Virus record (IMG/VR): IMGVR_UViG_3300013105_000022
Coordinates: 1-64,000 of that record
Reading direction: 5' to 3' (one strand)
DNA: 64,000 nt
DNA from: a virus
Lineage: Duplodnaviria; Caudoviricetes
A program made the translations under genes and the position numbers. Below the pieces are notes generated by a model. The model was not told the origin of the DNA and made no database searches. It saw only the letters and a program-made list of their open reading frames with translations. This document shows positions 44 to 13,430 of this stretch, piece after piece (the first letter of the stretch is position 1; each line of letters opens with the position of its first letter).

Positions 44-120
44 GGTGGTAGAGGCAGAGCGGTTGTTGCAACAGGTTGTGAGCCTGTCCCCTGGCGGGTT
101 CGATTCCCGTCTATCACCCA
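44..120 (+). tRNA. tRNA-His(GTG)
   Basis: Cloverleaf; ACAGG-TTGTGAG-CCTGT anticodon arm, GGTTCGATTCC T loop, extended acceptor. Confidence 0.9.
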
Positions 121-164
121 GAGCGGTTGTAGGTAACGCGGAGACATCCGGTGGAACCTAATTT

Positions 165-237
165 GGCTCTATGATGTAAAGGTAAGCATGTCAGCTTGTC
201 AAGCTGGATGTGGGGGTTCGACTTCCCCCTAGAGTCG
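165..237 (+). tRNA. tRNA-Asp(GTC)
   Basis: TCAGC-TTGTCAA-GCTGG, TTCGACT T loop, GGCTCTA/TAGAGTC acceptor, G73. Confidence 0.9.
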
Positions 238-242
238 CAAAA

Positions 243-295
243 AGCTCTTGAGAAAGAGCTTGACAATACGTCTGGAAGGGCGTATAACTAAGACA
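243..295 (+). promoter_or_regulatory. Promoter of GOLLD/tRNA operon with an inverted repeat abutting the -35
   Basis: AGCTCTT-GAGA-AAGAGCT hairpin, TTGACA 260-265, 17 nt, TATAACT 283-289. Confidence 0.75.
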
Positions 296-1085
296 TGGGG
301 CATGACCCATAAGCATCCGTGAGGGTGTGAAAGAGAGTGTGACAACCTCTCGCCAGGCAACTGGTACCTCATGCAATCTGAGTGATTCACTTATCCGGTG
401 CCAAGCTGGGTAAGCGACATTCGAGTCACCTGAAGCACCCTAGGGCCGACCGGCGAGGGGTGGCCACCTGTTCTCGCAGTGTGGAAAAGGATCATGACAA
501 GAGTGTTGTTCATGCAGAGGGTGAGTTAGTTCGAGGCCTGTCAGCCAAGAGCAATCACCACGAGTCACAAGTATTGGACCGGAGGGTTCAAGAAAATGGG
601 ACAAGAAATGTAAGTAGCCTGACAGCGAACGCATTCGAAGGTGTGTAGTATTCTGAATCTCAAAAGGGTTCGGAGCTACATGAGAAAGCACATCTTCAGT
701 CAAATACCGCATCATTAGCTCATTGGCAGAGCAATTCCCTCTAACGGAATAGGCGGCAGGTTCAATTCCTGCATGTTTATGCAAAACACAAGCGAAAGCC
801 TTTCTCGTCAGGTAACGAAAGTGCCTTAATCCTCAGCACGTAAGTGAACTGAGGCAACTGGAAGCTCGCAAGGCCAAGGTTGTTCATAGGAAAGTAGCAG
901 GAGTTCAGGAGCTTAGCGGCCCCTGTTCGGTTGCAAAATCCGTGGAGTAAGTACCTGATTCTGGGGTGGTGCCCCGTAAAATCCACCAGGCATGACAAGT
1001 ACAGTGGCGACACTGTGGAGAAGTCGGGAACCAATAATCCGGCGAAAGCTTGTTACGATAGGATGTATTCTCAGTCCTCTTCACC
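295..1085 (+). ncRNA. GOLLD RNA (~790 nt) with embedded tRNA
   Basis: No credible ORF, dense hairpins, inside a phage tRNA cluster; GOLLD-like segments recalled by eye (GGTGTGTAGTATTC..CTCAAAAGG..GCACATCTT, GCTCGCAAGG, GGGAACCAATAATCC..GTATTCTCAG). Confidence 0.8.
709..783 (+). tRNA. tRNA with CUA (amber) anticodon inside the GOLLD linker
   Basis: TAGCTCATTGGCAGAGC D arm, ATTCC-CTCTAAC-GGAAT, GCAGG-TTCAATT-CCTGC; acceptor has a 3-nt bulge. Confidence 0.75.
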
Positions 1086-1113
1086 CTCCGGGGCCTCGAA
1101 ACCCCCGGAATTT

Positions 1114-1185
1114 GGTCTCATCGTATAGCGGCTAATACGCTAGGTTCTCAGCCTAGTAACCGGGGTTCGATTCCCCGTGGGATCA
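1114..1185 (+). tRNA. tRNA-Glu(CTC)
   Basis: CTAGG-TTCTCAG-CCTAG; canonical T arm. Confidence 0.92.
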
Positions 1186-1186
1186 C

Positions 1187-1255
1187 GCAAGCGTGTAGTT
1201 TAAGAAAAACACCGAGCAAGGCTCGGAGTTGGGGAAATGTCCCCCACGTGAGCCA
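1187..1255 (+). ncRNA. tRNA-like element with a 3-nt loop in place of the anticodon loop
   Basis: GCGTG/CACGT acceptor, GTTT/AAAC D stem, CCGAGC-AAG-GCTCGG, GGGG/CCCC T stem. Confidence 0.55.
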
Positions 1256-1258
1256 TAT

Positions 1259-1330
1259 GGCCCCATCGTTTAGTGGTTAGGACGCTGGTCTTTCAAGCCG
1301 GTAATGAGGGTTCGATTCCCTCTGGGGTCA
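1259..1330 (+). tRNA. tRNA-Glu(TTC)
   Basis: CTGGT-CTTTCAA-GCCGG; canonical arms. Confidence 0.92.
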
Positions 1331-1404
1331 CGTTGTAGCAACATTCCTCCCACGGATAGCTATTCGGTTCAAATCCGACGCGAGACGGCGATAGGGTCAC
1401 ATAA

Positions 1405-1487
1405 CCTGAGTTATACCGTAGGGGTAGCGGGACTGGCTGTAACCCAGTTGCCATTAGGCTCGGGGAGTTCGACTCTCTCACTCAGGA
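1405..1487 (+). tRNA. tRNA-Tyr(GTA), long variable arm
   Basis: ACTGG-CTGTAAC-CCAGT; CCTGAGT/ACTCAGG acceptor. Confidence 0.9.
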
Positions 1488-1616
1488 CGCAACACAAAAC
1501 AGTTATGAGCTTGCCGCGTAAGCGGTAAGTTCTTGAGGCTTCTGGTCAACGAAAAAGCCTACAGGCTGGCGAACCCAAGCGCTACACCTGAGCACGTGTT
1601 AGTAAACTGCTCATAC

Positions 1617-1690
1617 GGGAGTAGAAGAGCCAAGGATGACAGGGCTGACTGTAAATCAGTTCGTGGTAGGTTCGATTCCTACTGCTCCCA
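1617..1690 (+). tRNA. Atypical tRNA-Tyr(GTA), short variable loop, poor D stem
   Basis: GCTGA-CTGTAAA-TCAGT; GTAGG-TTCGATT-CCTAC; GGGAGTA/TGCTCCC. Confidence 0.7.
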
Positions 1691-1771
1691 CGCATGGCGC
1701 AATATTCGGACGTTGAGGATTAGTGACCTTCAACCATTAGTGAGCGCTGGCAGGGAATCGTCTCAACACTA

Positions 1772-1839
1772 GGGACGAGGCAAATGAGCACTCCGGCCTG
1801 ATAAAGCCGGTGGACTGGGTTGGACTCCCAGACGTGCCA
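1772..1839 (+). pseudogene. Degenerate tRNA-Ile(GAT)-like gene
   Basis: CCGGC-CTGATAAA-GCCGG (8-nt loop), CTGGG-TTGGACT-CCCAG, mismatched acceptor. Confidence 0.5.
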
Positions 1840-1875
1840 CATCGGCAGGTTGGTGTAAGGACCATTTCCCTTTAT

Positions 1876-1948
1876 GGGACTTTGGCGTAGCTGGAGCGCG
1901 CGACCGTCTGAAGAGCGGTAGGACAGGGTTCGATTCCCTGAGGTCCCA
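1876..1948 (+). tRNA. tRNA-Phe(GAA)
   Basis: ACCGT-CTGAAGA-GCGGT; canonical T arm. Confidence 0.9.
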
Positions 1949-2038
1949 CAGTAGGCGCGCTAGGCGTCGAAGCCGGAAACTCACTCAAAGCCCGGACGCA
2001 GGAGGAAGCTTTCGAGACGTTTCTCCACCCTAGTATAT

Positions 2039-2111
2039 GGCTTCGTAGGCAACGGAAGACCACTCTGACTTAGAATCAGTGATGCTGTGGGTTCGAATCC
2101 CACCGGAGCTA
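2039..2111 (+). tRNA. tRNA-Leu(TAG), short variable loop
   Basis: TCTGA-CTTAGAA-TCAGT; GTGGG-TTCGAAT-CCCAC. Confidence 0.85.
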
Positions 2112-2112
2112 C

Positions 2113-2196
2113 GCTCGTTTGGTGAAACAGGTAGACACGCCAGTCTCAGAAGCTGGTGCCCGATAGGGCGTGCGGGTTCGACTCCCGTGATGAGCA
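2113..2196 (+). tRNA. tRNA-Leu(CAG)
   Basis: CCAGT-CTCAGAA-GCTGG; long variable arm. Confidence 0.92.
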
Positions 2197-2287
2197 CAAT
2201 GTTGGGGCAATGCGTACGGCACAATTTGAGACACCGCAGGAGTAGCGACGGACCTCAGCCCAACATCTAGGATTCCTCTGTGAATAC

Positions 2288-2371
2288 GCGCGAGTGATGG
2301 AATAGGTAGTCTTGCCAGAATGAGAGTCTGGTGTCCGAAAGGGCGTGGGGGTTCGAGTCCCCTCTTGCGCA
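2288..2371 (+). tRNA. tRNA-Leu(GAG)
   Basis: CCAGA-ATGAGAG-TCTGG; long variable arm. Confidence 0.9.
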
Positions 2372-2395
2372 CAATGAGACCCCAAGGAGGGCAAT

Positions 2396-2746
2396 ATGGA
2401 ATTCGAACTTTACTCCAGCTATTTCGGAGAGAACGCCCCTCGTGTCATCACTGATGTTGAGTGGGTCGATGAACTTGAGCTTGACAACGCTTCATATCAG
2501 TTCTACATCCTCCTTGTCGTCAAGAGAGAAGACGGGTACTACCTGTCCACTGACTCTGGATGCTCCTGCCCAACGCCGTGGGAGAACCACACGTTCCCGG
2601 AGAGCTTCACCGGTCCTCTGACGGCAGAGCAGGCACGTGAGGAGTCTTCTTCCCTCATCGAGGGAGCACAGGAGACAGCGCGTAACGGCTACTCTGAAGG
2701 TCCCGACGAGTATAGGGCTAAGGCACTGCTCGCCAAGATCGTCTAA
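2396..2746 (+). CDS. Hypothetical phage protein (DSGCSCPTPWE motif)
   Basis: AAGGAGG SD, phage-like codon usage, followed by a terminator. Confidence 0.8.
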   Translation: MEFELYSSYFGENAPRVITDVEWVDELELDNASYQFYILLVVKREDGYYLSTDSGCSCPTPWENHTFPESFTGPLTAEQAREESSSLIEGAQETARNGYSEGPDEYRAKALLAKIV

Positions 2747-2749
2747 CTA

Positions 2750-2788
2750 GAAAACCCCAGGTCAGCACATGATCTGGGGTTTTTCTTT
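2750..2788 (+). terminator. Intrinsic terminator
   Basis: AAAACCCCAGGTCA..TGATCTGGGGTTTTTCTTT. Confidence 0.85.
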
Positions 2789-2864
2789 GCCTGAACGGCC
2801 TTACAGGCGTATACATGAGCTAGACTAGAAGCTGTATAACCAGCCATACCCCAGGGAGAACCTT

Positions 2865-3119
2865 GTGTCAATCCTCAGTGATAGCCTGAAGGACGTACGT
2901 GAGCCAAAGCAGAAGCCGAGCAACTTCAGGAAGTGGCTCGACTCTCTTTCAGAGGAGGATCGTAAGATCGCTCTGGATGCTATGCACGACAAGACCATTC
3001 TGAAGACCCACTTGCAGGAAGCCTTCAAGAGGGCAGGCCTTCAGGTCTCTAAGGACACTCTCAACAGGATCAGAGAGCAACTGCAAGACGGAACTCTCAA
3101 GGACGAGGACATTCGATGA
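2865..3119 (+). CDS. Small hypothetical protein, possibly DNA-binding
   Basis: GTG start with GGAG SD; ATGA overlap with next gene. Confidence 0.7.
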   Translation: MSILSDSLKDVREPKQKPSNFRKWLDSLSEEDRKIALDAMHDKTILKTHLQEAFKRAGLQVSKDTLNRIREQLQDGTLKDEDIR

Positions 3120-4336
3120 GTGAGCTAGGCGAAGACATCCAGAAGGCCAAGGAGAAGGCGCAAGCCGCTATCAAGGCCGATGAGTACTTCATGAAGGATT
3201 CCGAAGGTAACTTCAAGGAAGCCACCCTCATGGCTACAACAGCCTGGGGAGAGGATGATTGGAAGGCCTGGCTTCTTGAGCAGGGTACCAATCCGGAAGA
3301 TGTCACCTTCACCTTTGGAGTAACTTCCAATCCGTCCGGTGGTTACTGGAACAAGCTCCTCAATGTCAAGTACAAGAACAAGAATTTGGACGACGAAGGC
3401 GTGCCTCTGTGGCCTGTCATCCAGCCTTCCACGACCGTCTATAAGCTACGTCCCGTAGTCAAGACTCCGAAGGTCTCCAAGTTCAAGACAGCCGTGATCG
3501 GTGCAGACACTCAGATCGGCTTCGACATGGACGACCAGGGCAACCTGTACCCGTACCATGACGACCAGGCTATGGATGTCTTCCTCCAGGTCGTACAGCT
3601 TGAGGACCCAGACCAGACGATTCTTGCCGGTGACATCCTAGACCTTGCAGAGCAGGGCCGATGGGCACAGGAAGCTCGATTCGCGAACACCACACAGCAT
3701 GCCCTAGAGCGTGGCCGTAGGTTCGCCGCTGAGACCCGAGCCGCTACCAGTGGAGAGATTCACTGGATCGAGGGTAACCACGACAAGCGAATGCAGGGCT
3801 TCATGGAAGCCAACGCGAAGAGCGCTATGGGACTTCGTAAGGCCGGATACCCAGACTCGTGGCCTGTGATGAGTCTCCCGAATCTGATTGGTCTCGATGA
3901 CTTCGATACCACCTACATCGACGCATACCCAGCCGGACAGCACTGGATCACCGACAACCTCCGTGTGATTCATGGCACCAAGAGCCGTAGCAACGGTTCT
4001 ACGGCCTCAGCGTATGCCAACACGACTCCACACCTGTCTACCATCTTTGGACACTCTCACAGGCTTGAGATTCAGTCCAAGACGATCTTCGACAGGGCAG
4101 GCAAGATCAGGACGATGAACGTCAACCCTGGATGCCTGTGTCGTATCGACGGTGCAGTACCTTCCGTGCACGGTGCACGACACCTGGACGGCTCTAAGGC
4201 CACGTTCTACGAGGACTGGCAACAGGGCGTGGCAGTGATCCGCTACCGCGACACCGGCGAGTTCTACGTGGAACTCATCCAGATCGACAACGGCAAAGGC
4301 TTCTACGGTGGCCAAGAGCTAGAGTCACGTGTCTGA
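3116..4336 (+). CDS. Calcineurin-like metallophosphoesterase
   Basis: DTQ, GDILD, GNHD, IHG, GHSH motifs in order. Confidence 0.85.
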   Translation: MSELGEDIQKAKEKAQAAIKADEYFMKDSEGNFKEATLMATTAWGEDDWKAWLLEQGTNPEDVTFTFGVTSNPSGGYWNKLLNVKYKNKNLDDEGVPLWPVIQPSTTVYKLRPVVKTPKVSKFKTAVIGADTQIGFDMDDQGNLYPYHDDQAMDVFLQVVQLEDPDQTILAGDILDLAEQGRWAQEARFANTTQHALERGRRFAAETRAATSGEIHWIEGNHDKRMQGFMEANAKSAMGLRKAGYPDSWPVMSLPNLIGLDDFDTTYIDAYPAGQHWITDNLRVIHGTKSRSNGSTASAYANTTPHLSTIFGHSHRLEIQSKTIFDRAGKIRTMNVNPGCLCRIDGAVPSVHGARHLDGSKATFYEDWQQGVAVIRYRDTGEFYVELIQIDNGKGFYGGQELESRV

Positions 4337-4971
4337 TGAGTGTGATTTCCGTAGAGAGGGCCTTGTGCCCAAAATGCGGCACACTTCAGCCTAGAGACGA
4401 GTGGCCTACCTATCCTGACGGAAAATATAGAAGAACATGTAGAGAGTGCAAGCGCGCCAAGGATAGAGAATACGCGGCTAGAACTGCCGAGAAGAGACGC
4501 AAAGTATCAAGCGCTTGGATCAAGGCACACCCAGAGGTAAACAGGTCTAGGGTGAAAGCGTGGCAAAAGAAAAATCCGGAAAAGGCCAGAGAGACCAGAA
4601 GAGCTTGGTACAAGAATAACCCAGAGAAAGTTCACGCCAGCAATCGCGCCTCCTATCTGAGAAATAAGGACGTACACTTCGCAAAAGCGGCTAGATACAG
4701 AGCCAGGAAGCGGGAGGCCGAGTGCGGTTGCGTAGATAAAAGCTTTCGTCAGACTCTGATTAGAGCATATGGAGCTTCTTGTTTCTACTGCGGGGGTTCT
4801 TATGAGCACACCGACCACTTCGTACCTCTTGCTGGCGGAGGAATGAACTGTATTTCAAATCTAGTTCCATCCTGTGCTAACTGCAACCTGTCCAAGAAGG
4901 CGAAGCAAGTAGAGGACTGGACCGGATGGAACGGCAAGAGTCCGACGCTTGAGTGCCCCAGTAAGCGATAG
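4336..4971 (+). CDS. HNH homing endonuclease
   Basis: CFYCG..DHFVPLAGGG.N...NLVPSCANCNLSK; N-terminal Zn ribbon and basic helices. Confidence 0.9.
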   Translation: MSVISVERALCPKCGTLQPRDEWPTYPDGKYRRTCRECKRAKDREYAARTAEKRRKVSSAWIKAHPEVNRSRVKAWQKKNPEKARETRRAWYKNNPEKVHASNRASYLRNKDVHFAKAARYRARKREAECGCVDKSFRQTLIRAYGASCFYCGGSYEHTDHFVPLAGGGMNCISNLVPSCANCNLSKKAKQVEDWTGWNGKSPTLECPSKR

Positions 4972-4982
4972 TAGGAAGTATC

Positions 4983-5129
4983 ATGGAAGCATCATTCGAT
5001 GAGGAAGTCAACGCCTACTACTTCGGTGACGAAGACACCACAGTAGCGAAGGTCGTAGACCTCGGAAGCCGACACGTCTTCGTGGACGTAGACCATAACG
5101 GAAAGATTGTTGGGGTCGAAGTCCTCTAA
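4983..5129 (+). CDS. DUF2283-like small protein (48 aa)
   Basis: MEASFDEEVNAYYF..VFVDVDHNGKIVGVEVL. Confidence 0.65.
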   Translation: MEASFDEEVNAYYFGDEDTTVAKVVDLGSRHVFVDVDHNGKIVGVEVL

Positions 5130-5168
5130 GGACTTGACATCTGACTCTAGAGGGGCGATAGTAGAGCT

Positions 5169-5471
5169 ATGGAAGCTATCACACAGACAGAACCCGTCGT
5201 CACGGTAACGGACGCGGAGACCATCGAGTTCAGTATCGACCTCCCTGGCGTTGAGGACTATGTGCCTTGCGAGCAGTGCGACTCCACTGTGAAGAACGGT
5301 GTCATCGCATCCACTCGTTCGTACATGTTCTTCTTCTACAAGGACGGCCTCTTCTCCTTCTGCAAGCACCACGGAGAGAAGAACCAGGCCAAGCTCGAAG
5401 AACTGGGCGGAACACTGGTACTGGATACCCGTGATCGCCTCATCGAGAACCGGCTTCAGGGACAACTCTGA
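5169..5471 (+). CDS. Hypothetical Cys/His Zn-binding protein
   Basis: CEQC..FCKHH; leaderless after TTGACA-N17-GATAGT. Confidence 0.75.
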   Translation: MEAITQTEPVVTVTDAETIEFSIDLPGVEDYVPCEQCDSTVKNGVIASTRSYMFFFYKDGLFSFCKHHGEKNQAKLEELGGTLVLDTRDRLIENRLQGQL

Positions 5472-5617
5472 AAAATTTCTGACAGTTTGGGCCTTCCGGC
5501 TCAGATGTATGTTACAGTAGGACACATGAGTACAAATCAGACCATCGCAACGCGCGGAGCCTCGAAGCAGGTATCCGGCGTTAAGAGGCCTGTCTAGATT
5601 CATAAAACTAGACTTCC

Positions 5618-5686
5618 AAGAGCCTCTTCAGAGAAATCTGACAGAGGCTCTTGACATTTACGGGGGAAGCCCGTAAGATTAAGACA
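5618..5686 (+). promoter_or_regulatory. Promoter of second tRNA operon with an inverted repeat at the -35
   Basis: AAGAGCCTCT..AGAGGCTCTT overlapping TTGACA, 17 nt, TAAGATT-AAGAC-A. Confidence 0.7.
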
Positions 5687-5818
5687 TAGCCTCCTTGGGG
5701 GAAGAAATTCCGGACAGGATGAGCACTAGAACTCTGGGTAAAGCGCTACGGCGGCTCCCCGTCAAGTACACAGTGGAATCCGATACGGGACCAGGACGTA
5801 AGAGCCTGGCCCCGGAAT

Positions 5819-5905
5819 GGAGTAGTCGCCTAGAGGCCTATGGCGCTTGTCTGGAAAGCAAGTTGGGTACCCAATCCCTCGCAGGTTCGAATCCTGTCTA
5901 CTCCG
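5819..5905 (+). tRNA. tRNA-Ser(GGA)
   Basis: CTTGT-CTGGAAA-GCAAG; long variable arm; G73. Confidence 0.92.
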
Positions 5906-5908
5906 CAA

Positions 5909-5979
5909 AGGGAAGAGCGTGAAGCATGCTTAAAATCGCCTCTAAAGCGGTTGATACTGGGGTAGCGTCCAGTTTCCCT
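5909..5979 (+). ncRNA. Divergent tRNA-like gene with CUA anticodon
   Basis: AGGGAA/TTCCCT, ATCGC-CTCTAAA-GCGGT, ACTGG-GGTAGCGT-CCAGT (no TTC). Confidence 0.55.
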
Positions 5980-5982
5980 ATA

Positions 5983-6070
5983 TGGAGATGTGGTCGAGAG
6001 GCTTATGGCGTCTGTTTCGAAAGCAGAAGTGGCGTTAAACCCACCGCAGGTTCAAATCCTGTCATCTCCG
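5983..6070 (+). tRNA. tRNA-Ser(CGA)
   Basis: TCTGT-TTCGAAA-GCAGA; long variable arm. Confidence 0.92.
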
Positions 6071-6216
6071 CGTTACCACACGTCGTCTTTGTGCGGCTAG
6101 GGTTGCATCCTTACTGAACCGAATCCTGTGACTTGCTAGATAGGGCCACGGGGAGGAGGGTTTGGGTCCGCGAGACACAAGGGGGTTGCTCTTACCTTTA
6201 TCTAGGTGGTATCTTT

Positions 6217-6299
6217 GGAAGGTAAGCGAATGGAAAGCGCGTTGTTTTGAAAGCAATTATCCGGTAACACGGTTGCAGGTTCGAGTCCTGTACCTTCCG
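6217..6299 (+). tRNA. tRNA-Ser(TGA)
   Basis: GTTGT-TTTGAAA-GCAAT; long variable arm. Confidence 0.88.
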
Positions 6300-6300
6300 C

Positions 6301-6384
6301 GAAACCCACGAGAAATTCCAGTTCGACTCTGGTATAGTCCACCACATGGGCTATCCTGCCGGTGCCAGGACTTGTGGGCGTTTT
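6301..6384 (+). ncRNA. Circularly permuted tRNA-like RNA (YrlA-like topology)
   Basis: CCCACGAG/CTTGTGGG stem enclosing, in order, T arm, loop-closed acceptor, D arm. Confidence 0.7.
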
Positions 6385-6471
6385 GGAGATATGGCCGAGA
6401 GGCTTATGGCGTCACTTTGCTAAAGTGAAGTAGGTTGAAATCTACCGCAGGTTCGAATCCTGTTATCTCCG
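6385..6471 (+). tRNA. tRNA-Ser(GCT)
   Basis: TCACT-TTGCTAA-AGTGA; long variable arm. Confidence 0.92.
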
Positions 6472-6573
6472 CGTTGACCGGTTAGGAGTTTCTAGTAACA
6501 CTTCTCCGGCACAGTGGGCATGATGCTAGATGATGGCCCACACTTGACTTAAGTGGGGTAGCTCCCCTAAAGT

Positions 6574-6628
6574 CGTCCTGGTACTGGTGTACGGTACCTG
6601 TTCCCGTTCGATTCGGGAAGCCAGGGCG
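6574..6628 (+). ncRNA. Mini tRNA-like RNA lacking the anticodon arm
   Basis: CGTCCTGGT/GCCAGGGCG, small D-like hairpin, TTCCCG-TTCGATT-CGGGAA. Confidence 0.55.
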
Positions 6629-6787
6629 CAAACTTTCAAGACTAAGTACTAGAATTGACATTTCTAGTCCCCACTCGGTCGGGGAATCGTGCCGAGGGTG
6701 TTTAGCTGGATCATCGTAAAGAAAAGCGGTCTTATCCTACCAGAACGGGATACGCGAGGGGGGTGACCTGTCATCATCGCCTCTTAT

Positions 6788-6858
6788 GGGTCTAAGGTGT
6801 TACGGTAGCACTGGGCGCTCTTAACGCTCAAGCCAGGGTTCGACTCCCTGTAGACCCA
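6788..6858 (+). tRNA. tRNA-Lys(CTT)
   Basis: GGGCG-CTCTTAA-CGCTC. Confidence 0.88.
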
Positions 6859-7055
6859 CGTATGGGGTGACTCCCATTCCACTCCGGTATGTCCCGGACG
6901 TTTTTGCCTTCTCAGTGTATCGATAACAAAGAGAGCGTTATGTACGTACGAGAAGCGTGCACGTGTAAGTACAGTTGACGATACCAACACCGGGCAGTCC
7001 CTCTCGTATTCATGGGACCACGAAGGGGAGTTCCTAGTCAGTTCTAGCCCTTTAT

Positions 7056-7128
7056 GCCTCCGTAACTCAGCGGCTAGAGTAGCTGACTCTTAATCAGCGA
7101 GTCGTGGGTTCGAATCCCACCGGGGGTA
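7056..7128 (+). tRNA. tRNA-Lys(CTT)
   Basis: GCTGA-CTCTTAA-TCAGC; canonical. Confidence 0.95.
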
Positions 7129-7198
7129 CGGTGTTTGTGAGTAGCACCCATACCGGTAAAACTCATCGCATTCCGTCTGTGCGTAATCAGGCGGGCAT

Positions 7199-7271
7199 GG
7201 GGTATGAGCCATGATGGTGACGGCACCAGTCTTCCAAACTGGTTAGGTGGGTTCGATTCCCGCATACCTCT
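7199..7271 (+). tRNA. tRNA-Gly(TCC)
   Basis: CCAGT-CTTCCAA-ACTGG; U73. Confidence 0.88.
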
Positions 7272-7376
7272 CTCAACGCCGTAGGTTCGATTCCTGAAAT
7301 AGCTCGCTGGTGCGTGTGCGGCGCTGTACCAATGATTTACGCCGAGGGTTGCATTCAAACTAACTCCAGGCCCAAC

Positions 7377-7447
7377 GTCTATATGGTGAAATGGTATCAT
7401 CTCAGCTTGCCAAGCTGAGGGCGCGGGTTCGATTCCCGCTATAGGCT
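7377..7447 (+). tRNA. tRNA-Gly(GCC)
   Basis: TCAGC-TTGCCAA-GCTGA; U73. Confidence 0.9.
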
Positions 7448-7452
7448 CTCGT

Positions 7453-7635
7453 GGATTCAGTAAGTCAACATCTTGAAATGCAGGACGGCGGGGAGCTATT
7501 GGCGTAGCGGTGATCCGGCGAGCAGTTGGTGTTCATGGACATGATAACAAGATGAAGGACGACTGGGGTTTTTCATAGGTGATCCTGCTACCTCCTCCTT
7601 TCGGCCCTGTAGCGGCGTACCTGCTTACTGAATCC
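7453..7635 (+). ncRNA. ~183 nt rod-shaped RNA (6S-like size and shape)
   Basis: GGATTCAGTAAGT/GCTTACTGAATCC closing helix plus nested helices and an internal bubble. Confidence 0.5.
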
Positions 7636-7735
7636 CAATTGTGCCCTAGGGGCGGTGTTGGCCGATACCAACGAGGAATATCCGCGCTTGCGCAGTGAAC
7701 AACCTCAGGAGTCGTAGCACGTCGTAAGGGACTTT

Positions 7736-7807
7736 GCCCCTCTAGTTCTAGTGGTAAAACACCGGTCTTGTAAACCGGCTTCAGGAGTTCGATTCTTCTG
7801 AGGGGCA
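7736..7807 (+). tRNA. tRNA-Thr(TGT)
   Basis: CCGGT-CTTGTAA-ACCGG. Confidence 0.9.
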
Positions 7808-7912
7808 CGCTAGCAAACGGCTGAAAAAGGGATTGTAGTAAGCCAGTCTTCCAAACCAGAATCCCCGAAAGACACAGGCTCGAAAGAGTGCTAACTGTTA
7901 GGGAAGACATAT

Positions 7913-7983
7913 GCCGGATTAGCATAGTGGTAGTGCACCTGTTTCGTAATCAGGTAGCGCGGGTTCGATTCCCGCATTTGGCT
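7913..7983 (+). tRNA. tRNA-Thr(CGT)
   Basis: CCTGT-TTCGTAA-TCAGG. Confidence 0.88.
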
Positions 7984-8126
7984 CAAAGGGTGCAGGCTCA
8001 TATTTGTCTGCTCAATAGAGGATGCTAAATCCGACGCCTGAGGGTAGGAATGCCCGTCTCGCGAGACGAAATCCGTTGGGGTGTATGACCTCAGGAAGGG
8101 CGATAGTAGGTGCCCAATCATGCCAT

Positions 8127-8198
8127 GCCGCTTTAGCTCAGGGGTAGAGCATCTGCATGGTAAGCAGAAGGCCGTGGGTTCGAGACCCACAAGTGGCT
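8127..8198 (+). tRNA. tRNA-Thr(GGT)
   Basis: TCTGC-ATGGTAA-GCAGA. Confidence 0.9.
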
Positions 8199-8305
8199 CA
8201 GGGACGAATGTGACCTCATCACGCCACCCTATAAAGGCAGAACTTGAGGACGTTGAATGGGTTTTGGCTGACCTCTCACGGGCAATACGAGAAGTTGCCC
8301 TCTAT

Positions 8306-8378
8306 GGATGTGTGGCGCAGTGGCTAGCGCACCTGTATGACTCACAGGAGGTCGAGAGTTCGAATCTCTCCACATCTA
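8306..8378 (+). tRNA. tRNA-Val(GAC)
   Basis: CCTGT-ATGACTC-ACAGG. Confidence 0.9.
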
Positions 8379-8438
8379 CGCTTGACATCTGCAAGGATCG
8401 TCCCTAGACTGGTAACAACCAATCAAGAGGAGGGCACA

Positions 8439-8876
8439 ATGCCTTGTAGAGTTGAACTGTCGGAAGCAGAACTGGAAGCCGAGCGTCAGGCACGCTCCAA
8501 CCGCGAAATCGCTAAGGCCCTGAAGCCGGTGCAGGATCGCAATGACGACCTCACACACGAGAACGATCTTCTCCGTGAGACCATCCTGAACGTCGTCAAC
8601 GTCTTGGGAGACGAGGCCAAGAGCCTGATCCCGGACAAGCTCTTGAAGCACATCGAGCAGGATCAGGTAGAGCATCGCAAGGAAGACCTTCGCCGCCTGG
8701 AAGCCACACTGAACGAAAAAGTGGCGGTCCTTTACAAGGGCAAGAACTTCCGTGCAGGAGAGCAGGGTTGGAAGGAGGAGCGCAACGTTCTTTTCGATCA
8801 CATGCACCGCGTTTACACGGCTGATCCCAAGCTCCCGCTTGAGCCTCAACTTGGCTTCGATCCCGACAGCTACTAA
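8439..8876 (+). CDS. Hypothetical coiled-coil protein
   Basis: Own TTGACA/TAGACT promoter and GAGGAGG SD; start MPCRVELS. Confidence 0.8.
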   Translation: MPCRVELSEAELEAERQARSNREIAKALKPVQDRNDDLTHENDLLRETILNVVNVLGDEAKSLIPDKLLKHIEQDQVEHRKEDLRRLEATLNEKVAVLYKGKNFRAGEQGWKEERNVLFDHMHRVYTADPKLPLEPQLGFDPDSY

Positions 8877-8952
8877 GAATTGATACCCGGCAGGGCTTGT
8901 GATGATGTCACCTGTCTGGTATCTTTGGACTAGCTCACCTTACGGGCTATAC

Positions 8953-9022
8953 GGTTCGCGGGGTGGTTTCCTCCCCTGAGTTTTACACACTCGGACGCAC
9001 GGTTCAATTCCGTGGCGAACTA
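8953..9022 (+). tRNA. Atypical tRNA-Val(TAC), 6-bp anticodon stem
   Basis: GGTTCGC/GCGAACT, CTGAGT-TTTACAC-ACTCGG, CACGG-TTCAATT-CCGTG. Confidence 0.7.
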
Positions 9023-9065
9023 CAGTCTTGAATCGGACACTAGACTCTTGGAAGGAGGACCCGTC

Positions 9066-9554
9066 ATGACTGCATACGTAGAGCTTTACAATCAAGGTGC
9101 ATGCCTTGACGACAGCGGTTCCATCAAGGGTCAGCTTCTGAAGAGGATTTCGGTTCAGAAGGCTATGAACATGATGTGGCGCGGTGTCGCCAGGATTCTG
9201 GACGTGGACGAAGGAACCTTCGGACAGTTCGAGAAGCCCCGAGCATTGGAGTTGGTTAGATACGTCTACACCAAGTGGATGTACGAGCGCAAGGGCGAGA
9301 TTCGTCCGACGCGGCGCACCATCCTCCGACGCGACGACTACACATGCACGTACTGTGGCCAGTACGGTGACACGCTTGACCACATCCAGCCCCGCTCGCG
9401 CGGTGGTAAGGACTCGTGGGAGAACCTGATTACCGCTTGCCTCAAGTGCAACAACGTCAAGGACGACAGGACCCCTCAGGAAGCTGGCATGAAGCTCAGG
9501 TTCCAGCCGAGGGTACCTGAGTTCAAGGAAATCTACTCGTGGGGACGAGGCTAA
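9066..9554 (+). CDS. HNH endonuclease
   Basis: RDDYTCTYCG..TLDHIQPRSRGGKDSWENLITACLKCNNVK. Confidence 0.92.
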   Translation: MTAYVELYNQGACLDDSGSIKGQLLKRISVQKAMNMMWRGVARILDVDEGTFGQFEKPRALELVRYVYTKWMYERKGEIRPTRRTILRRDDYTCTYCGQYGDTLDHIQPRSRGGKDSWENLITACLKCNNVKDDRTPQEAGMKLRFQPRVPEFKEIYSWGRG

Positions 9555-9556
9555 AT

Positions 9557-9829
9557 ATGACGTACTACGACAACAAAGAAGCCCTGAAGGGCACTGTTAG
9601 GGAGCTTGCCGCCAAGAGGCTGGGAGCTTCCGACACAGACAAGATCGAGTATGGAACGTACACCTGGGACTCCGGTTTCTGTGAGACGTGTTCGTACACC
9701 GAATACGAGTTCGTCGTTCTCCTGAACGGCGAGGTCGTATACGACTCAAAAGGCAACCAGTACATCGACGGATACGACATCTTCGGGGCATTCCAGGAAT
9801 GGCTCGATGGAGTAGAAGAGAAGTACTGA
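9557..9829 (+). CDS. Hypothetical protein (GFCETC motif)
   Basis: Follows the HNH gene; GAGG SD. Confidence 0.7.
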   Translation: MTYYDNKEALKGTVRELAAKRLGASDTDKIEYGTYTWDSGFCETCSYTEYEFVVLLNGEVVYDSKGNQYIDGYDIFGAFQEWLDGVEEKY

Positions 9830-9958
9830 GAACCCCACAGGACAGCTACTTGTCTCCTGGCCTATAACCGATTTGCGGATAGCGGCGAAGGTAGTCGTTG
9901 GGTATACTGGAACGAGCTAGGTATACAAGTCGGGAGGGTACGTGAATCCCTCCCATAT

Positions 9959-10033
9959 TCCTCTGTAGCGCTCCAGGCGAGTGCGCCACGCTGTTAACGT
10001 GGAGGTAGGTTGGTTCGAGTCCAGCCAGGGGAG
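9959..10033 (+). tRNA. tRNA-Asn(GTT)
   Basis: CCACG-CTGTTAA-CGTGG; G73. Confidence 0.85.
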
Positions 10034-10236
10034 CTACCCGATATACACCGAGCAGTGCCACCACACTGGGCTAACTCGGAACCGATGTACCGCGACGGCG
10101 GAACTGCATCTAGGGCAGGCATACGAAGTGGTGGATTGAAGGATAGCATTACTACGAGGACACGTACGACCTTAGTGGTGGCTCATCCTCTCCGTGGAAG
10201 TCGGGGCGTGCCGTGGCCACGATACAAAGCCGCCTT

Positions 10237-10308
10237 ACCCCTGTAGCTCAGTGGCAGAGCAGGAAGCTGTTAACTTCAAGGTCGTTGGTTCGAATCCAGC
10301 CAGGGGTG
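10237..10308 (+). tRNA. tRNA-Asn(GTT)
   Basis: GGAAG-CTGTTAA-CTTCA; canonical D/T arms. Confidence 0.9.
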
Positions 10309-10373
10309 CTCTACAAACAAAGAAAACTAGAAAACAACTTGACAACCAACCAGAACAGGCGTAAAAATAGATC

Positions 10374-11453
10374 ATGACTTACTACATCAGAGCAGGAGCG
10401 CGGTTCAACGTCGCAGACAAGAACGCGCTGAACCTCCAGGAGAACCTTCCTGTAGGCACTTACACTGTCGGCTGGGACGAGATGAACAGCCGCTTCTTCC
10501 TCTCAATGGTCGCGAACCTGGAAATCTCCGGTAAGGTCTACGGAGACACCAACAAGGTCACCGAGCGCATCTTCACCACGTTCATGGATCGCCCGGCTTC
10601 GACCGGTGTCATGCTCGCGGGTGAGAAGGGTTCAGGTAAGACCCTCCAGGCCAAGAAGCTGAGTCACATCGGCCTCCAGAACAACATCCCGACCATCATC
10701 ATCAACCAGCCGTGGCACGGTGAACTGTTCAACCAGTTCATGCAGACCATCGATCAGCCTACGATCATTCTCTTCGATGAGTTCGAGAAGACGTACGATG
10801 AGCAGAAGTCTCAGGAAGCACTCCTGACTCTCTTCGATGGGGTCTACCCGTCCAAGAAGATGTTCGTCATCACGTGCAACGACTCGTACCGCATCAACCA
10901 GCACTTGAAGAACCGTCCCGGTCGTATCTACTACCGCAAGGACTACAAGGGTCTGGAGCGCGAGTTCATCGAGGAGTACTGCCGTGACAACCTCAAGAAC
11001 CAGGCCAACATGGAGGGCGTCTGCAAGATCGCAGTAGCTTTCTCGGAGTTCAACTTCGACATCCTCAAGGCTATGGTCGAGGAGATGAACCGCTACGACG
11101 AGACGGCTCAGGAGACGATGAGTTTCCTGAACGCTCGCCCTGAGTTCAGCAACATGGCTGACTACGAGGGATTCATCCTCTCTGAGGACAAGAAGATTGC
11201 CGTCACTTGGAGGGGTGCACCGCTGAACGGTAACCCCATCCGCATCTACTTCACCGCTCCCGGTGCCGCTAAGGACTGGGAAGACAGCCTCCTGGGGCTG
11301 GATGAGGACGGAGACGGCTCTGCCGAGTTCCTTGTCTCTGACCTTGTGAAGGTCGATGCTCAGACAGGATCGTTCCTCTTCGTGAACAGCGAGAAGGTCG
11401 AACTTCACCTGACCAAGAAGGTCGAAAAGACCTACAATTACAACGCCTTCTGA
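10374..11453 (+). CDS. AAA+ ATPase
   Basis: Walker A GEKGSGKT, Walker B ILFDEFEK, NRPGRI arginine finger. Confidence 0.9.
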   Translation: MTYYIRAGARFNVADKNALNLQENLPVGTYTVGWDEMNSRFFLSMVANLEISGKVYGDTNKVTERIFTTFMDRPASTGVMLAGEKGSGKTLQAKKLSHIGLQNNIPTIIINQPWHGELFNQFMQTIDQPTIILFDEFEKTYDEQKSQEALLTLFDGVYPSKKMFVITCNDSYRINQHLKNRPGRIYYRKDYKGLEREFIEEYCRDNLKNQANMEGVCKIAVAFSEFNFDILKAMVEEMNRYDETAQETMSFLNARPEFSNMADYEGFILSEDKKIAVTWRGAPLNGNPIRIYFTAPGAAKDWEDSLLGLDEDGDGSAEFLVSDLVKVDAQTGSFLFVNSEKVELHLTKKVEKTYNYNAF

Positions 11454-11638
11454 ACATGATCGTATTCATGCCTTTCTCAAGGACTAACGGATTGCGGGAC
11501 TTCCTGGCTCTGGTCACGAGGTTCATGCTCTAGAATTCCGACAGTCAATCTTCAGTAGACCCGAGTGCTTTACTGATTATGGACGGGAATGCCGGAGGGC
11601 GATAAACTCTCAGGGGTGCGACTGAACAACGCACATAC

Positions 11639-11710
11639 GCCGCTATGGTCCAATGGATACGATACTAGGCTACGAACCTGGGGATTTCAGTTCGATTCTG
11701 AATAGTGGTA
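11639..11710 (+). tRNA. tRNA-Arg(ACG)
   Basis: CTAGG-CTACGAA-CCTGG. Confidence 0.9.
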
Positions 11711-11743
11711 CGTTACCCCTTTCATCTGTGATAAGATGGAAGG

Positions 11744-12142
11744 ATGAACACACGAGTACAAGAATGGCGAGAGTCAAAGAGAAAGCCGTGTCCCGGTGGA
11801 TGCGGAACTACTGTGGCTTACGACACTGTTCTATGCCGATCTTGTCACTCACTAGCTAAGCGTGACCGAGCACTGGATAAGACAGTCGGTGAACTCAAGG
11901 CAACAAGCAAGAGCCTAAGGTGGACCGACCACGTTCGTTACTTTGCTAGAAAGATGCATCAGTTTGCTGAGTGTGAAGTTTGCGGATACGCCAAAATGGT
12001 AGAAGTAGCTCACATCGTTGACGTGGCATCTTTTCCGGACACGGCTACTATTCGAGAAGTAAACGCAAGAGAGAACGTCAGAGGCCTATGCCCCAATCAT
12101 CACTGGGAATTTGACAACGGCGTTCTAAATGAGCCGCTATAG
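11744..12142 (+). CDS. HNH endonuclease
   Basis: CEVCG..EVAHIVDV..N.RGLCPNHHWEFD; stop codon lies inside the next tRNA. Confidence 0.88.
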   Translation: MNTRVQEWRESKRKPCPGGCGTTVAYDTVLCRSCHSLAKRDRALDKTVGELKATSKSLRWTDHVRYFARKMHQFAECEVCGYAKMVEVAHIVDVASFPDTATIREVNARENVRGLCPNHHWEFDNGVLNEPL

Positions 12143-12204
12143 TACAAGGGATAGTGCTTCTGCCTCCTAAGCAGAGAATCCAGGTTCGAGTCCTGGTAGT
12201 GGCG
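12133..12204 (+). tRNA. tRNA-Arg(CCT)
   Basis: TCTGC-CTCCTAA-GCAGA. Confidence 0.9.
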
Positions 12205-12222
12205 CGCTAGAAAGGAACAGAG

Positions 12223-12814
12223 ATGACACCTGAAGAGATTGAGGATGCGGCAACGCAACTCGTAGTGGAGCATCTTGACGAGGGTATCGAATACCTTACG
12301 GTATCTGAAGCACTCTTCGAGGAGCACGAAGAAGTCAGTGAGGAAGACACCAAGGCCGTGTTCGACAAGGCCAACCGTATCCTTACGAAGATCATCGATA
12401 TGTACTTCGAGGATGCCGACTAGTGGACGAATTCGATCACCCACTCTTCCTCCACGGTATGGATGTGGGTGAGTCCATCGGTGAATACAACGCTCAGGCT
12501 GAGGCACAGCGCGCTTACGACATGGGCGAGATTGAGCTTTGGCTCGCATTCTACAAGCCGAAGACCATTTCCGAGTGGGTCGAATGGGAATTGGAACACG
12601 GAAGATCAGGTGATTTCGAGAAAAGGTGGGCAAGATGACACAAACAATTCGGCTTACCTCTCAGGAGACCGGCGAGTTGATTGACGAATTCGAGGTAGAG
12701 GACGATGAGTTCGCTATCTGGGAAAGAGCGGCAAGCAAGATGGGTCTCACGGTCGAGGAATTCCTTGTCAAGGCAATCCACGACTTCGCAGACAATTACA
12801 AGCCCAAGAAGTAA
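12223..12814 (+). CDS. Three coupled small acidic hypothetical genes (12223-12423, 12423-12638, 12635-12814)
   Basis: Overlapping stop/start codons, SD before the first. Confidence 0.7.
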
Positions 12815-12844
12815 ACCCCCACTGAGCCGGGGTAAAGGCTCTGA

Positions 12845-12917
12845 TCCCCGGTAGTTTATGTTGGTAAAACGCCTGACTCTGAATCAGGAATGCTTGGATC
12901 GTCGCCAGGCTGGGGAG
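12845..12917 (+). tRNA. tRNA-Gln(CTG) with aberrant T loop
   Basis: CCTGA-CTCTGAA-TCAGG; T loop ATCGTCG. Confidence 0.8.
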
Positions 12918-12983
12918 CGAGGTAGCTATTTCACCTACGACAAATGGTCGCGAACTAGATCGTAGTGCGGTAGTTACCCACAT

Positions 12984-13054
12984 ACCGGAGTGGTGTAAAG
13001 GTAGCACAAGAGACTTTGACCCTCTTAGACTTGGTTCGATACCAGGCTCCGGTG
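12984..13054 (+). tRNA. tRNA-Gln(TTG)
   Basis: AGAGA-CTTTGAC-CCTCT; ACCGGAG/CTCCGGT acceptor. Confidence 0.85.
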
Positions 13055-13373: not shown

Positions 13374-13430
13374 AGGATAGAGCACATCCCTCCGAAGGAT
13401 GAGACACGGGTTCGAGTCCCGTCGAGGGTA
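13359..13430 (+). tRNA. tRNA-Arg(CCG)
   Basis: CATCC-CTCCGAA-GGATG. Confidence 0.92.

What the first reader, a model, noticed from the sequence alone, without database searches (positions are those of the whole stretch)
709..783. GOLLD cargo is an amber-anticodon tRNA with a bulged acceptor stem
Seen: canonical D, anticodon and T arms, CTA at 741-743, and acceptor GCAT-CAT / ATG-TTT-ATGC with a 3-nt bulge. TAG is used as an ordinary stop in this window (4971, 12142, 14286). Inference: either a conditional suppressor released from GOLLD, or an unchargeable UAG-binding decoy that competes with RF1.
Basis: partly seen in the sequence, partly recalled or inferred. Interest (0 to 1): 0.75.

Follow-up and report, generated by a model that had tools for sequence, protein, structure and literature searches.

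The report
Crippled amber-anticodon tRNA look-alike inside GOLLD
A giant cage-forming phage RNA (GOLLD) carries in its central linker a tRNA-shaped piece that happens to bear the amber (CUA) anticodon. Its broken acceptor stem, the ordinary use of TAG in this phage and the different anticodons of its relatives make it a tethered tRNA look-alike of a known kind, not a working stop-codon suppressor.

Summary
Window 636-1077 is a GOLLD RNA (Rfam 213.9 bits). A cloverleaf core at 713-775 (Rfam tRNA 47.4 bits, model 5-66 only) sits in its variable linker. The loop is CUCUAAC (CTA at 741-743). The acceptor is GCAUCAU / AUG-UUU-AUGC.

The suppressor and decoy readings are poorly supported.
- ARAGORN does not call the element. 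It has 4/7 in-register acceptor pairs, against 7/7 in 41 of the phage's 44 tRNAs.
- It lacks the C74 that all 44 encode.
- TAG ends 20 of 199 predicted genes, and no gene is split by TAG.
- Homologous inserts lie at the same linker site in other GOLLDs and carry other anticodons: GUU, UUU, CUU, UCU, UAG, UUG, AUG, GGA, UGA, and 8-nt or A33/C33 loops. None of 96 distinct survey inserts (77 in confirmed GOLLD loci) has CUA. The nearest relatives, about 80% identical, read GUU or UCU.
- Mycobacteriophages of cluster M show the same insert decaying or deleted.

tRNAs and pseudo-tRNAs in the GOLLD linker are already published. Earlier notes of this scan report CUA inserts in GOLLDs of two other genomes; I did not check them.

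Best reading: a tethered tRNA-shaped domain inside the cage, descended from an Asn/Lys-type linker tRNA, whose anticodon drifted. It is a new member of a known kind.

The parts
260..288 (+). Possible promoter just upstream of the GOLLD RNA: TTGACA (260-265), a 17-nt spacer, TATAAC (283-288)
   Evidence: Read from the sequence. The consensus scan did not list it, because it requires T at the last -10 position. Unconfirmed.
295..635 (+). Variable 5' domain of the GOLLD RNA (approximate start)
   Evidence: ORF-poor structured stretch between tRNA-Asp (165-238) and the Rfam GOLLD match. Part of it (about 370-520) resembles the matching region of cluster M mycobacteriophages and M. abscessus prophages. 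The 575-695 stretch aligns to the GOLLD of L095.
636..1077 (+). Conserved 3' domain of the GOLLD RNA (Rfam RF02032), including the linker
   Evidence: 213.9 bits, E 4e-59, model 1-416 of 416. The same result came from the own-genome search. nhmmer with my GOLLD 3'-domain profile hits 637-1081.
709..783 (+). tRNA-shaped insert in the GOLLD linker (the finding)
   Evidence: Rfam tRNA 47.4 bits over 713-775. My model R1 gives 40 bits. The core is about 80% identical to linker inserts of other GOLLDs.
709..715 (+). Acceptor 5' strand GCATCAT
   Evidence: Sequence; pairing models.
718..732 (+). D arm GCTC-ATTGGCA-GAGC, with G18 G19 kept
   Evidence: Sequence. All 4 pairs show compensatory changes across six GOLLDs.
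734..750 (+). Anticodon arm ATTCC-CTCTAAC-GGAAT
   Evidence: Sequence. All 5 pairs show compensatory changes. The same stem ATTCC/GGAAT carries a GUU loop in L444 and a UCU loop in L498.
741..743 (+). CTA, the amber-reading anticodon triplet
   Evidence: Sequence. No other CUA among 96 distinct linker inserts surveyed.
756..772 (+). T arm GCAGG-TTCAATT-CCTGC with a canonical T loop
   Evidence: Sequence.
773..782 (+). Acceptor 3' strand ATG + TTT bulge (776-778) + ATGC
   Evidence: Sequence. The best model is 3 bp, a 3-nt bulge on the 3' strand, then 4 bp, all Watson-Crick.
783..784 (+). AA where all 44 tRNA genes of this phage have discriminator + C74
165..238 (+). Flanking tRNA-Asp(GUC), upstream neighbour in the tRNA array
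   Evidence: ARAGORN and Rfam.
1114..1186 (+). Flanking tRNA-Glu(CUC), downstream neighbour in the tRNA array
   Evidence: ARAGORN and Rfam.

Best explanation
The element is a tRNA-shaped domain that stays covalently built into the variable linker of a phage GOLLD RNA. In the solved GOLLD cage this linker faces the interior.

It descends from the family of linker tRNAs found at the same site in many GOLLDs. Most of those carry CU-NUU-AA loops of the Asn/Lys type. In this lineage the L-shaped core has been kept: the D, anticodon and T arms, G18 G19 and the T loop. The two ends needed for decoding have degenerated. The acceptor helix is interrupted by a UUU bulge and lacks C74. The loop has moved two substitutions away from CUCUUAA, to CUCUAAC.

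The CUA triplet is therefore most likely a product of drift in a non-decoding loop.

Inferred, not shown: the irregular acceptor end keeps RNase P, RNase Z, the CCA-adding enzyme and synthetases from treating the domain as a tRNA. The two GOLLD halves would then stay joined, and each protomer would display one tRNA body inside the cage.
For: Shown:
- GOLLD and the tRNA core match Rfam, and the insert lies in the linker.
- tRNA-like inserts lie 66-86 nt after the start of the Rfam GOLLD match in L144, L057, L082, Estes and Rey as well as here.
- 14 of 17 cloverleaf pairs show compensatory changes across six GOLLDs, and 95.8% of cells pair, against 30-47% when the partners are slid.
- The core is 77-82% identical to inserts that read GUU, UCU, UUU or CUU.
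- Survey of distinct inserts in confirmed GOLLD loci: GUU 25, UUU 18, UCU 6, CUU 4, others, CUA 0 of 77. ARAGORN of 96 distinct inserts, none as CUA.
- Decay series in cluster M mycobacteriophages: Leu/Ser anticodons on short-arm bodies, C33, 8-nt loops, a missing acceptor 3' strand, and deletion in Nanosmite.
- Within this genome, 41 of 44 real tRNAs have 7/7 acceptor pairs and all 44 have C74. The insert has 4/7 and A74.
- TAG is an ordinary stop, and TAG-joined coding frames are no more common than TGA- or TAA-joined ones.

Literature:
- A tRNA-Phe sits in J13/15 and points inward (PMC12990946).
- The pseudo-tRNA inside the M. aubagnense GOLLD gave no separate transcript (PMC6582537).
Against: - The anticodon loop itself is fully canonical (C32 U33 CUA A37 C38), and the elbow nucleotides are intact, so the core could still be read as a tRNA.
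- Without the bulge the acceptor strands are perfectly Watson-Crick complementary (7/7). That can mean a very recent insertion or a purposeful bulge rather than slow decay.
- In the large aquatic clade the loop is constrained (NUU-AA), so linker tRNAs may be functional there.
- Earlier notes of this scan report CUA inserts in GOLLDs of two other genomes. I did not check them.
- My survey is dominated by one clade and required a canonical T loop.
- Nothing here shows expression, cage assembly or lack of processing.
Confidence: 0.7

Rival explanations
1. It is a working amber suppressor held in reserve. The GOLLD cage stores the tRNA, and RNase P and RNase Z release it under some condition. It is then given CCA, charged (for example as a Lys-type tRNA, one base away from CUU) and reads UAG.
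For: The 7-nt loop with U33 and A37, the CUA triplet, the intact D and T loops and the elbow are all canonical. The seven acceptor pairs are all Watson-Crick if the UUU is looped out. Relatives with regular acceptor stems are called as ordinary tRNAs by ARAGORN. An 'inhibited storage' idea is in print (PMC12990946).
Against: - I know of no bacterial tRNA that works with a 3-nt bulge in the acceptor helix (own knowledge).
- Rfam and my model match only without the outer stem, and ARAGORN fails.
- A74 stands where all 44 tRNA genes here have C74.
- TAG ends 10% of genes, including a clamp-loader gene, and no gene carries an in-frame TAG.
- CUA is absent from 96 related inserts.
- The closest cultured relative, Pumpernickel, has the syntenic tRNA array without any GOLLD or suppressor.
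Confidence: 0.07
2. It is an unchargeable UAG-binding decoy. The tethered anticodon pairs with UAG in the ribosomal A site and competes with RF1.
For: Only the CUA triplet in a canonical loop, and a cited report that ribosomes were pulled down with GOLLD.
Against: - Delivery to the A site needs EF-Tu and an aminoacylated 3' end (established knowledge).
- The domain is held between two large folded halves, in a linker that faces the cage interior, so it is sterically shut out of the A site.
- Homologous inserts carry sense anticodons or non-decoding loops.
Confidence: 0.02
3. It is bait or a sponge for tRNA-directed host factors, such as anticodon nucleases or tRNA-modifying or tRNA-binding proteins. 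Many copies are displayed per cage, and the loop sequence changes under an arms race.
For: - The anticodon arm changes fast between close relatives while the hairpin is kept: Estes UAG, Rey GGA, MrMagoo UGA, Bongo C33, Reindeer 8 nt. All five stem pairs covary.
- The element sits in a tRNA array. Phage tRNA arrays have been linked to evasion of tRNA-cleaving defences (own knowledge).
- The related phage Pumpernickel carries an RtcB-like ligase and a peptidyl-tRNA hydrolase in its array.
Against: No direct evidence. The same pattern is expected from relaxed constraint. In the aquatic clade the loop is conserved rather than diversifying.
Confidence: 0.1
4. It is a built-in processing signal. RNase P and RNase Z cut at the tRNA-like fold and split GOLLD into 5' and 3' halves that assemble without a covalent link.
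For: tRNA-like folds act as cutting signals elsewhere, for example MALAT1 mascRNA and mitochondrial tRNA punctuation (own knowledge). Relatives with 6-7 acceptor pairs could be cut.
Against: In this copy the acceptor helix, the main determinant for both enzymes, is the part that is disrupted. MrMagoo and Aziz have no acceptor 3' strand at all. Northern analysis in M. aubagnense found no separate pseudo-tRNA product (PMC6582537).
Confidence: 0.08

Closest known systems
GOLLD RNA (Rfam RF02032) with a tRNA or pseudo-tRNA in its variable linker. Examples: the Mycolicibacterium tRNA-Phe in J13/15 and the M. aubagnense pseudo-tRNA. Sources: Weinberg 2009 as cited in PMC6582537; Kretsch et al., bioRxiv 10.1101/2024.12.08.627333; review PMC12990946.
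   Same: The same family by Rfam score. The insert is at the same place, after the first hairpin of the 3' domain. The setting is the same: a phage or actinobacterial tRNA array with HNH endonuclease genes. The core is the same cloverleaf.
   Different: The triplet here is CUA, which I found in no other surveyed insert and in no paper. The acceptor helix carries a 3-nt UUU bulge.
Linker inserts of cluster M mycobacteriophages (Estes, Rey, MrMagoo, Aziz, Bongo, Reindeer) and M. abscessus prophages. GenBank annotates them as tRNA-Leu, tRNA-Ser, tRNA-Gln or tRNA-OTHER.
   Same: Actinophage GOLLDs of the same subgroup, with similar first-hairpin and linker flanks. Their tRNA matches are also partial (Rfam model 3-68), and their acceptor ends are degenerate.
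   Different: Their loops read UAG, GGA or UGA, or have 8 nt or C33. Several lack the acceptor 3' strand entirely, whereas this copy keeps both strands with a bulge.
Linker tRNAs of the abundant aquatic-phage GOLLD clade (IMG/VR loci L392-L509)
   Same: The core is 77-82% identical. Some share the identical anticodon stem and variable loop (ATTCC/GGAAT, AGGCG).
   Different: Those mostly carry CU-NUU-AA loops and 5-7 in-register acceptor pairs, and ARAGORN calls most of them as tRNA-Asn or tRNA-Lys.
Phage amber-suppressor tRNAs (tRNA-Sup CUA) of TAG-recoded phages, own knowledge
   Same: The CUA anticodon sits in a canonical loop, and the element is encoded by a phage with a large tRNA set.
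   Different: This phage shows no TAG recoding or in-frame TAG. The element is not a free-standing tRNA gene, and it lacks a regular acceptor stem and C74.

Membership tests
GOLLD RNA (Rfam RF02032) | Match to the covariance model of the conserved 3' domain above the gathering score (150 bits) | tested here: met
   213.9 bits, full model 1-416, window 636-1077.
GOLLD RNA (Rfam RF02032) | Large size (about 800 nt), with a variable 5' domain upstream of the conserved 3' domain | tested here: met
   About 790-840 nt of ORF-poor sequence lies between tRNA-Asp (ends 238) and tRNA-Glu (starts 1114). Parts of the 5' stretch align to other GOLLD loci.
GOLLD RNA (Rfam RF02032) | Phage or prophage setting, near a tRNA island | tested here: met
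   136.5-kb virus record with 44 tRNA genes. GOLLD lies between two of them.
GOLLD RNA (Rfam RF02032) | Assembly into a closed homo-oligomeric cage | not testable with these tools
   Known only from cryo-EM of env-38 and S. agalactiae GOLLD.
GOLLD linker tRNA / tRNA-like insert | Cloverleaf located in the variable linker after the first hairpin of the 3' domain | tested here: met
   The insert starts 73-77 nt after the start of the Rfam match here. The distance is 66-86 nt in L144, L057, L082, Estes and Rey.
GOLLD linker tRNA / tRNA-like insert | Sequence relatedness to other linker inserts, and arms kept through compensatory change | tested here: met
   77-82% core identity to L427, L498, L444 and others. 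14 of 17 pairs show two-sided changes. Caveat: any set of tRNAs would covary in this way.
Functional (decoding) bacterial-type tRNA | Regular 7-bp acceptor stem stacked on the T arm | tested here: not met
   4 of 7 in-register pairs. The helix forms only with a 3-nt bulge. 41 of this phage's 44 tRNAs have 7/7. Rfam and R1 align only model positions 5-66/67.
Functional (decoding) bacterial-type tRNA | 3' end like the genome's real tRNA genes (discriminator followed by C74) | tested here: not met
   All 44 genes have N73-C74. The insert has A783-A784.
Functional (decoding) bacterial-type tRNA | Canonical 7-nt anticodon loop with U33 and a purine at position 37 | tested here: met
   CUCUAAC: C32, U33, CUA, A37, C38.
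Functional (decoding) bacterial-type tRNA | Detected by a standard tRNA gene finder | tested here: not met
   ARAGORN finds nothing at 600-900, even at the relaxed threshold.
Phage amber-suppressor tRNA system | Genes with in-frame TAG, or TAG depleted as a stop, so that suppression is needed | tested here: not met
   TAG ends 20 of 199 predicted genes. One TAG lies between two coding-like frames, against 2 for TGA and 2 for TAA, and that case is two separate genes. Treating TAG as sense does not lengthen the longest frame.
Phage amber-suppressor tRNA system | CUA anticodon conserved in orthologous elements | tested here: not met
   0 of 77 distinct inserts in confirmed GOLLD loci and 0 of 96 overall. 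No close ortholog of this particular GOLLD was found in the viral or metagenome collections.
Phage amber-suppressor tRNA system | Excision, aminoacylation and UAG read-through | not testable with these tools
   These need northern blot or tRNA-seq and reporter assays.

The most novel reading that the evidence does not exclude
The CUA insert is not a relic. It is a cage-sequestered amber-reading tRNA body whose bulged acceptor helix is a deliberate lock. When the cage opens, or the bulge is resolved or trimmed, it is processed and briefly suppresses UAG or otherwise acts on termination. GOLLD would then be a timed store for a stop-codon reader. The CUA inserts that this scan noted in GOLLDs of two other genomes would be the same device.
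Probability: 0.06. Interest if true: 0.8.

Novelty: new member of a known kind. Interest (0 to 1): 0.3.

Why it matters
GOLLD is one of the largest structured RNAs known, and its function is unknown. The tRNA sometimes found in its linker is one of the few clues.

This case and the survey around it show what the linker insert keeps and what it loses. It keeps the L-shaped core. In many lineages it lets the acceptor end and the anticodon decay. That argues that shape, or tethered display inside the cage, is what matters, rather than decoding.

The work also gives a practical warning. Such inserts are deposited in GenBank as tRNA-Leu, tRNA-Ser, tRNA-Gln or tRNA-OTHER genes, and a CUA one could be mis-annotated as a suppressor and taken as a sign of recoding.

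If the CUA insert were in fact functional, it would link GOLLD to the control of translation termination. The evidence here makes that unlikely.

Tried and rejected
1. TAG recoding. Open-frame statistics under alternative stop sets, stop-codon usage and a search for TAG-joined coding frames gave nothing beyond the TGA/TAA background.

2. Close orthologs of this GOLLD, to test whether CUA is conserved.
- A neighbouring protein found no related viral contig.
- Exact patterns from the anticodon arm and the T arm hit only ordinary tRNA-Ile, tRNA-Ala and other tRNAs, plus the GOLLD loci L144 and L169, whose inserts have other anticodons.
- The linker-plus-D-arm pattern found only L144 and L227 in viral contigs and no GOLLD in metagenome contigs.
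- My genome-contig scan used a pattern that was too short and returned chance matches.

3. A kissing loop between the anticodon loop and another GOLLD loop. Six-mer complementarity is enriched (44 of 63 against 27.5). However, the partner motifs (GTAACAGGTGGTGCT, TTAAAAACGGCGAT) are conserved whatever the loop sequence, so nothing covaries. Dropped.

4. Bulged acceptor stems as a recurrent design. A one-bulge model rescues 33 of 50 irregular stems. With the proximal pairs held fixed, chance gives 24.3 +/- 2.6, so the enrichment is weak and I do not lean on it.

5. MFE folding of 700-795 did not return the cloverleaf (z = -1.6). This is uninformative for tRNAs.

6. The T arm plus ATGTTTAT was flagged as terminator-like. 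A 5-bp stem makes this unconvincing.

7. Morgado 2020 and Weinberg 2009 could not be read here.

Full report
**What is there**

The window is the first 64 kb of a 136.5-kb virus record that CheckV rates as complete. GC content is 55%. The phage carries 44 tRNA genes that ARAGORN recognises, in one array that runs across the ends of the record.

Between tRNA-Asp (165-238) and tRNA-Glu (1114-1186), Rfam finds a GOLLD RNA at 636-1077. It scores 213.9 bits against a gathering score of 150 and covers the full model. Inside that match, in the part of the model that is an unstructured A/U-rich linker, Rfam's tRNA model matches 713-775 at 47.4 bits, but only over model positions 5-66.

Read directly from the sequence, the element is:
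- GCATCAT (709-715), then TA
- GCTC-ATTGGCA-GAGC, then A
- ATTCC-CTCTAAC-GGAAT
- AGGCG
- GCAGG-TTCAATT-CCTGC
- ATG-TTT-ATGC, then A (783)

CTA occupies the anticodon register at 741-743. The acceptor strands pair as 3 bp, a 3-nt bulge, then 4 bp.

**How tRNA-like is it?**

The core is canonical. It has U33, A37, G18 G19 and a TTCAATT T loop. The ends are not canonical:
- In the normal register only 4 of 7 acceptor positions pair.
- ARAGORN does not call it even at a relaxed threshold.
- My covariance model, built from 26 tRNAs of this phage, also aligns only positions 5-67.
- In the same genome, 41 of 44 tRNA genes have 7/7 acceptor pairs.
- All 44 have a C directly after the discriminator. 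The insert has A783-A784.

The seven acceptor pairs are all Watson-Crick if the UUU is looped out. I estimate the chance of that at about 0.03 for Watson-Crick pairs only. So the helix is probably real, but it is interrupted.

**Is an amber reader needed?**

No.
- TAG ends 20 of 199 predicted genes (TGA 114, TAA 65).
- Reading TAG as sense does not lengthen the longest frame.
- Only one TAG lies between two coding-like frames, against two each for TGA and TAA. That one separates a clamp-loader gene from an epimerase gene that has its own start codon.

**Homologs**

tRNA-shaped inserts sit at the same place, 66-86 nt after the start of the Rfam GOLLD match, in several other GOLLDs.

| GOLLD | Anticodon or loop |
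|---|---|
| L144 | AUG |
| L227 | CAG, with A33 |
| L169 | GUU |
| L057 | UUG, with a 6-nt T loop |
| L082 | UAG |
| Mycobacteriophage Estes | UAG |
| Mycobacteriophage Rey | GGA |

Across six of these, 14 of 17 cloverleaf pairs show changes on both sides, and 95.8% of cells pair, against 30-47% when the partners are slid. The caveat is that any collection of tRNAs would behave this way.

Cluster M mycobacteriophages give a decay series among close relatives:
- Estes and Rey have Leu and Ser anticodons on short-variable-arm bodies and an altered T loop.
- MrMagoo and Aziz have UGA and no acceptor 3' strand.
- Bongo has C33.
- Reindeer and three M. abscessus prophages have 8-nt loops, deposited as tRNA-OTHER.
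- Nanosmite has lost the insert.

**An anticodon-blind survey**

Two patterns that fix only the T loop and the start of the next GOLLD helix returned 151 IMG/VR loci.

In loci confirmed by my GOLLD profile there are 77 distinct inserts. Their anticodons are GUU 25, UUU 18, UCU 6, CUU 4, UGA 3, AUG 2, UAG 2, seven non-7-nt loops and singletons. None is CUA. ARAGORN of all 96 distinct inserts: Asn 29, Lys 22, Arg 5 and others, none CUA.

The anticodon is therefore not random in the large aquatic clade, where the loop is CU-NUU-AA. It is highly variable in the actinophage clade. CUA is unique to this copy.

Our core is 77-82% identical to inserts that read GUU, UCU, UUU and CUU. Some have the identical stem ATTCC/GGAAT and variable loop AGGCG. 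The loop here is two substitutions away from CUCUUAA.

The survey is dominated by one clade and required a canonical T loop, so it is not a full census.

**Context**

The nearest cultured relative is Microbacterium phage Pumpernickel, at 51-54% amino-acid identity for two proteins. Its tRNA array is syntenic (... His, Met, Asp, Glu, Glu, Phe, Leu ...). It has only about 240 nt between Asp and Glu and no GOLLD match. GOLLD is thus an accessory cassette in this actinophage lineage.

**Literature**

[quoted passage not shown] The linker is unresolved in the structure but lies in the cage interior (bioRxiv 10.1101/2024.12.08.627333).
- A Mycolicibacterium GOLLD holds a tRNA-Phe in J13/15. It points inward, and an 'inhibited storage' idea has been proposed for it (PMC12990946).
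- The M. aubagnense GOLLD holds a pseudo-tRNA for which no separate transcript was seen (PMC6582537).
- No held paper contains both 'GOLLD' and 'suppressor tRNA'.

Earlier notes of this scan describe many GOLLD inserts, including CUA ones in two other genomes and 8-nt-loop ones. These are unchecked leads, and first readers are likely to flag CUA preferentially.

**Verdict**

The element is a member of the known class of GOLLD linker tRNA-like inserts.

Most likely it is a tethered L-shaped domain whose decoding ends have decayed. The CUA triplet is an outcome of drift, and the irregular acceptor end would keep tRNA-processing and charging enzymes from treating it as a tRNA. That last step is inferred, not shown.

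A releasable suppressor (about 7%), an RF1 decoy (about 2%), a bait for tRNA-directed factors (about 10%) and a processing signal (about 8%) remain as rivals. The tests that would settle the matter are experimental and are listed under next steps.

Noticed in passing
window 1617-1691, 1779-1840, 6543-6627, 16171-16231: Further degenerate tRNA-like elements in the array that ARAGORN does not call at default settings. My tRNA model scores them 35.4, 24.7, 13 and 25.6 bits. At a relaxed threshold, 1621-1689 folds as a short-arm 'tRNA-Tyr(GUA)' with mismatches, next to the regular long-arm tRNA-Tyr at 1405-1488.
   Followed up: partly
whole record (window 45-18101, plus record 135223-136289): All 44 tRNA genes encode a discriminator followed by C74. 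Only tRNA-Cys encodes the full CCA. The array runs across the ends of the record, so the record is circularly permuted within the array.
   Followed up: partly
window 260-288: TTGACA, 17 nt, then TATAAC, just after an 8-bp hairpin (about 243-262) that follows tRNA-Asp. This could be GOLLD's own promoter. The consensus scan did not list it because the last -10 base is C.
   Followed up: no
window 4336-4971, 9012-9554, 11744-12142: HNH endonuclease genes (Pfam HNH, HNH_5, HNH_2) are scattered through the tRNA array, as in the mycobacterial tRNA arrays that carry GOLLD.
   Followed up: partly
L510 (Microbacterium phage Pumpernickel, NC_073468.1, 82.9-102.1 kb): Its tRNA array is syntenic with this phage's but has no GOLLD between tRNA-Asp and tRNA-Glu. 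It carries peptidyl-tRNA hydrolase, RtcB-like ligase and ADP-ribosyltransferase genes within the array.
   Followed up: partly
IMG/VR loci L392-L509 (aquatic-phage GOLLDs): The linker tRNAs of this abundant clade keep the loop CU-N-UU-AA while position 34 switches between G, U and C (Asn or Lys readings) on almost identical bodies. More than half of all surveyed inserts have 5 or fewer of 7 in-register acceptor pairs, against 1 of 44 for this phage's real tRNAs.
   Followed up: partly
L353-L362 (cluster M mycobacteriophages and M. abscessus prophages): GenBank records annotate the GOLLD linker insert as an ordinary tRNA gene (tRNA-Leu(tag), tRNA-Ser, tRNA-Gln(ttg), tRNA-OTHER) and do not annotate the GOLLD RNA itself. 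In several records a small hypothetical ORF is called over the GOLLD 5' region.
   Followed up: partly
L095 4789-5097; L353 566-929; L354 329-704: Phage-encoded tmRNA genes lie a few hundred bases to 2 kb from the GOLLD RNA in L095 and in mycobacteriophages Estes and Rey.
   Followed up: no
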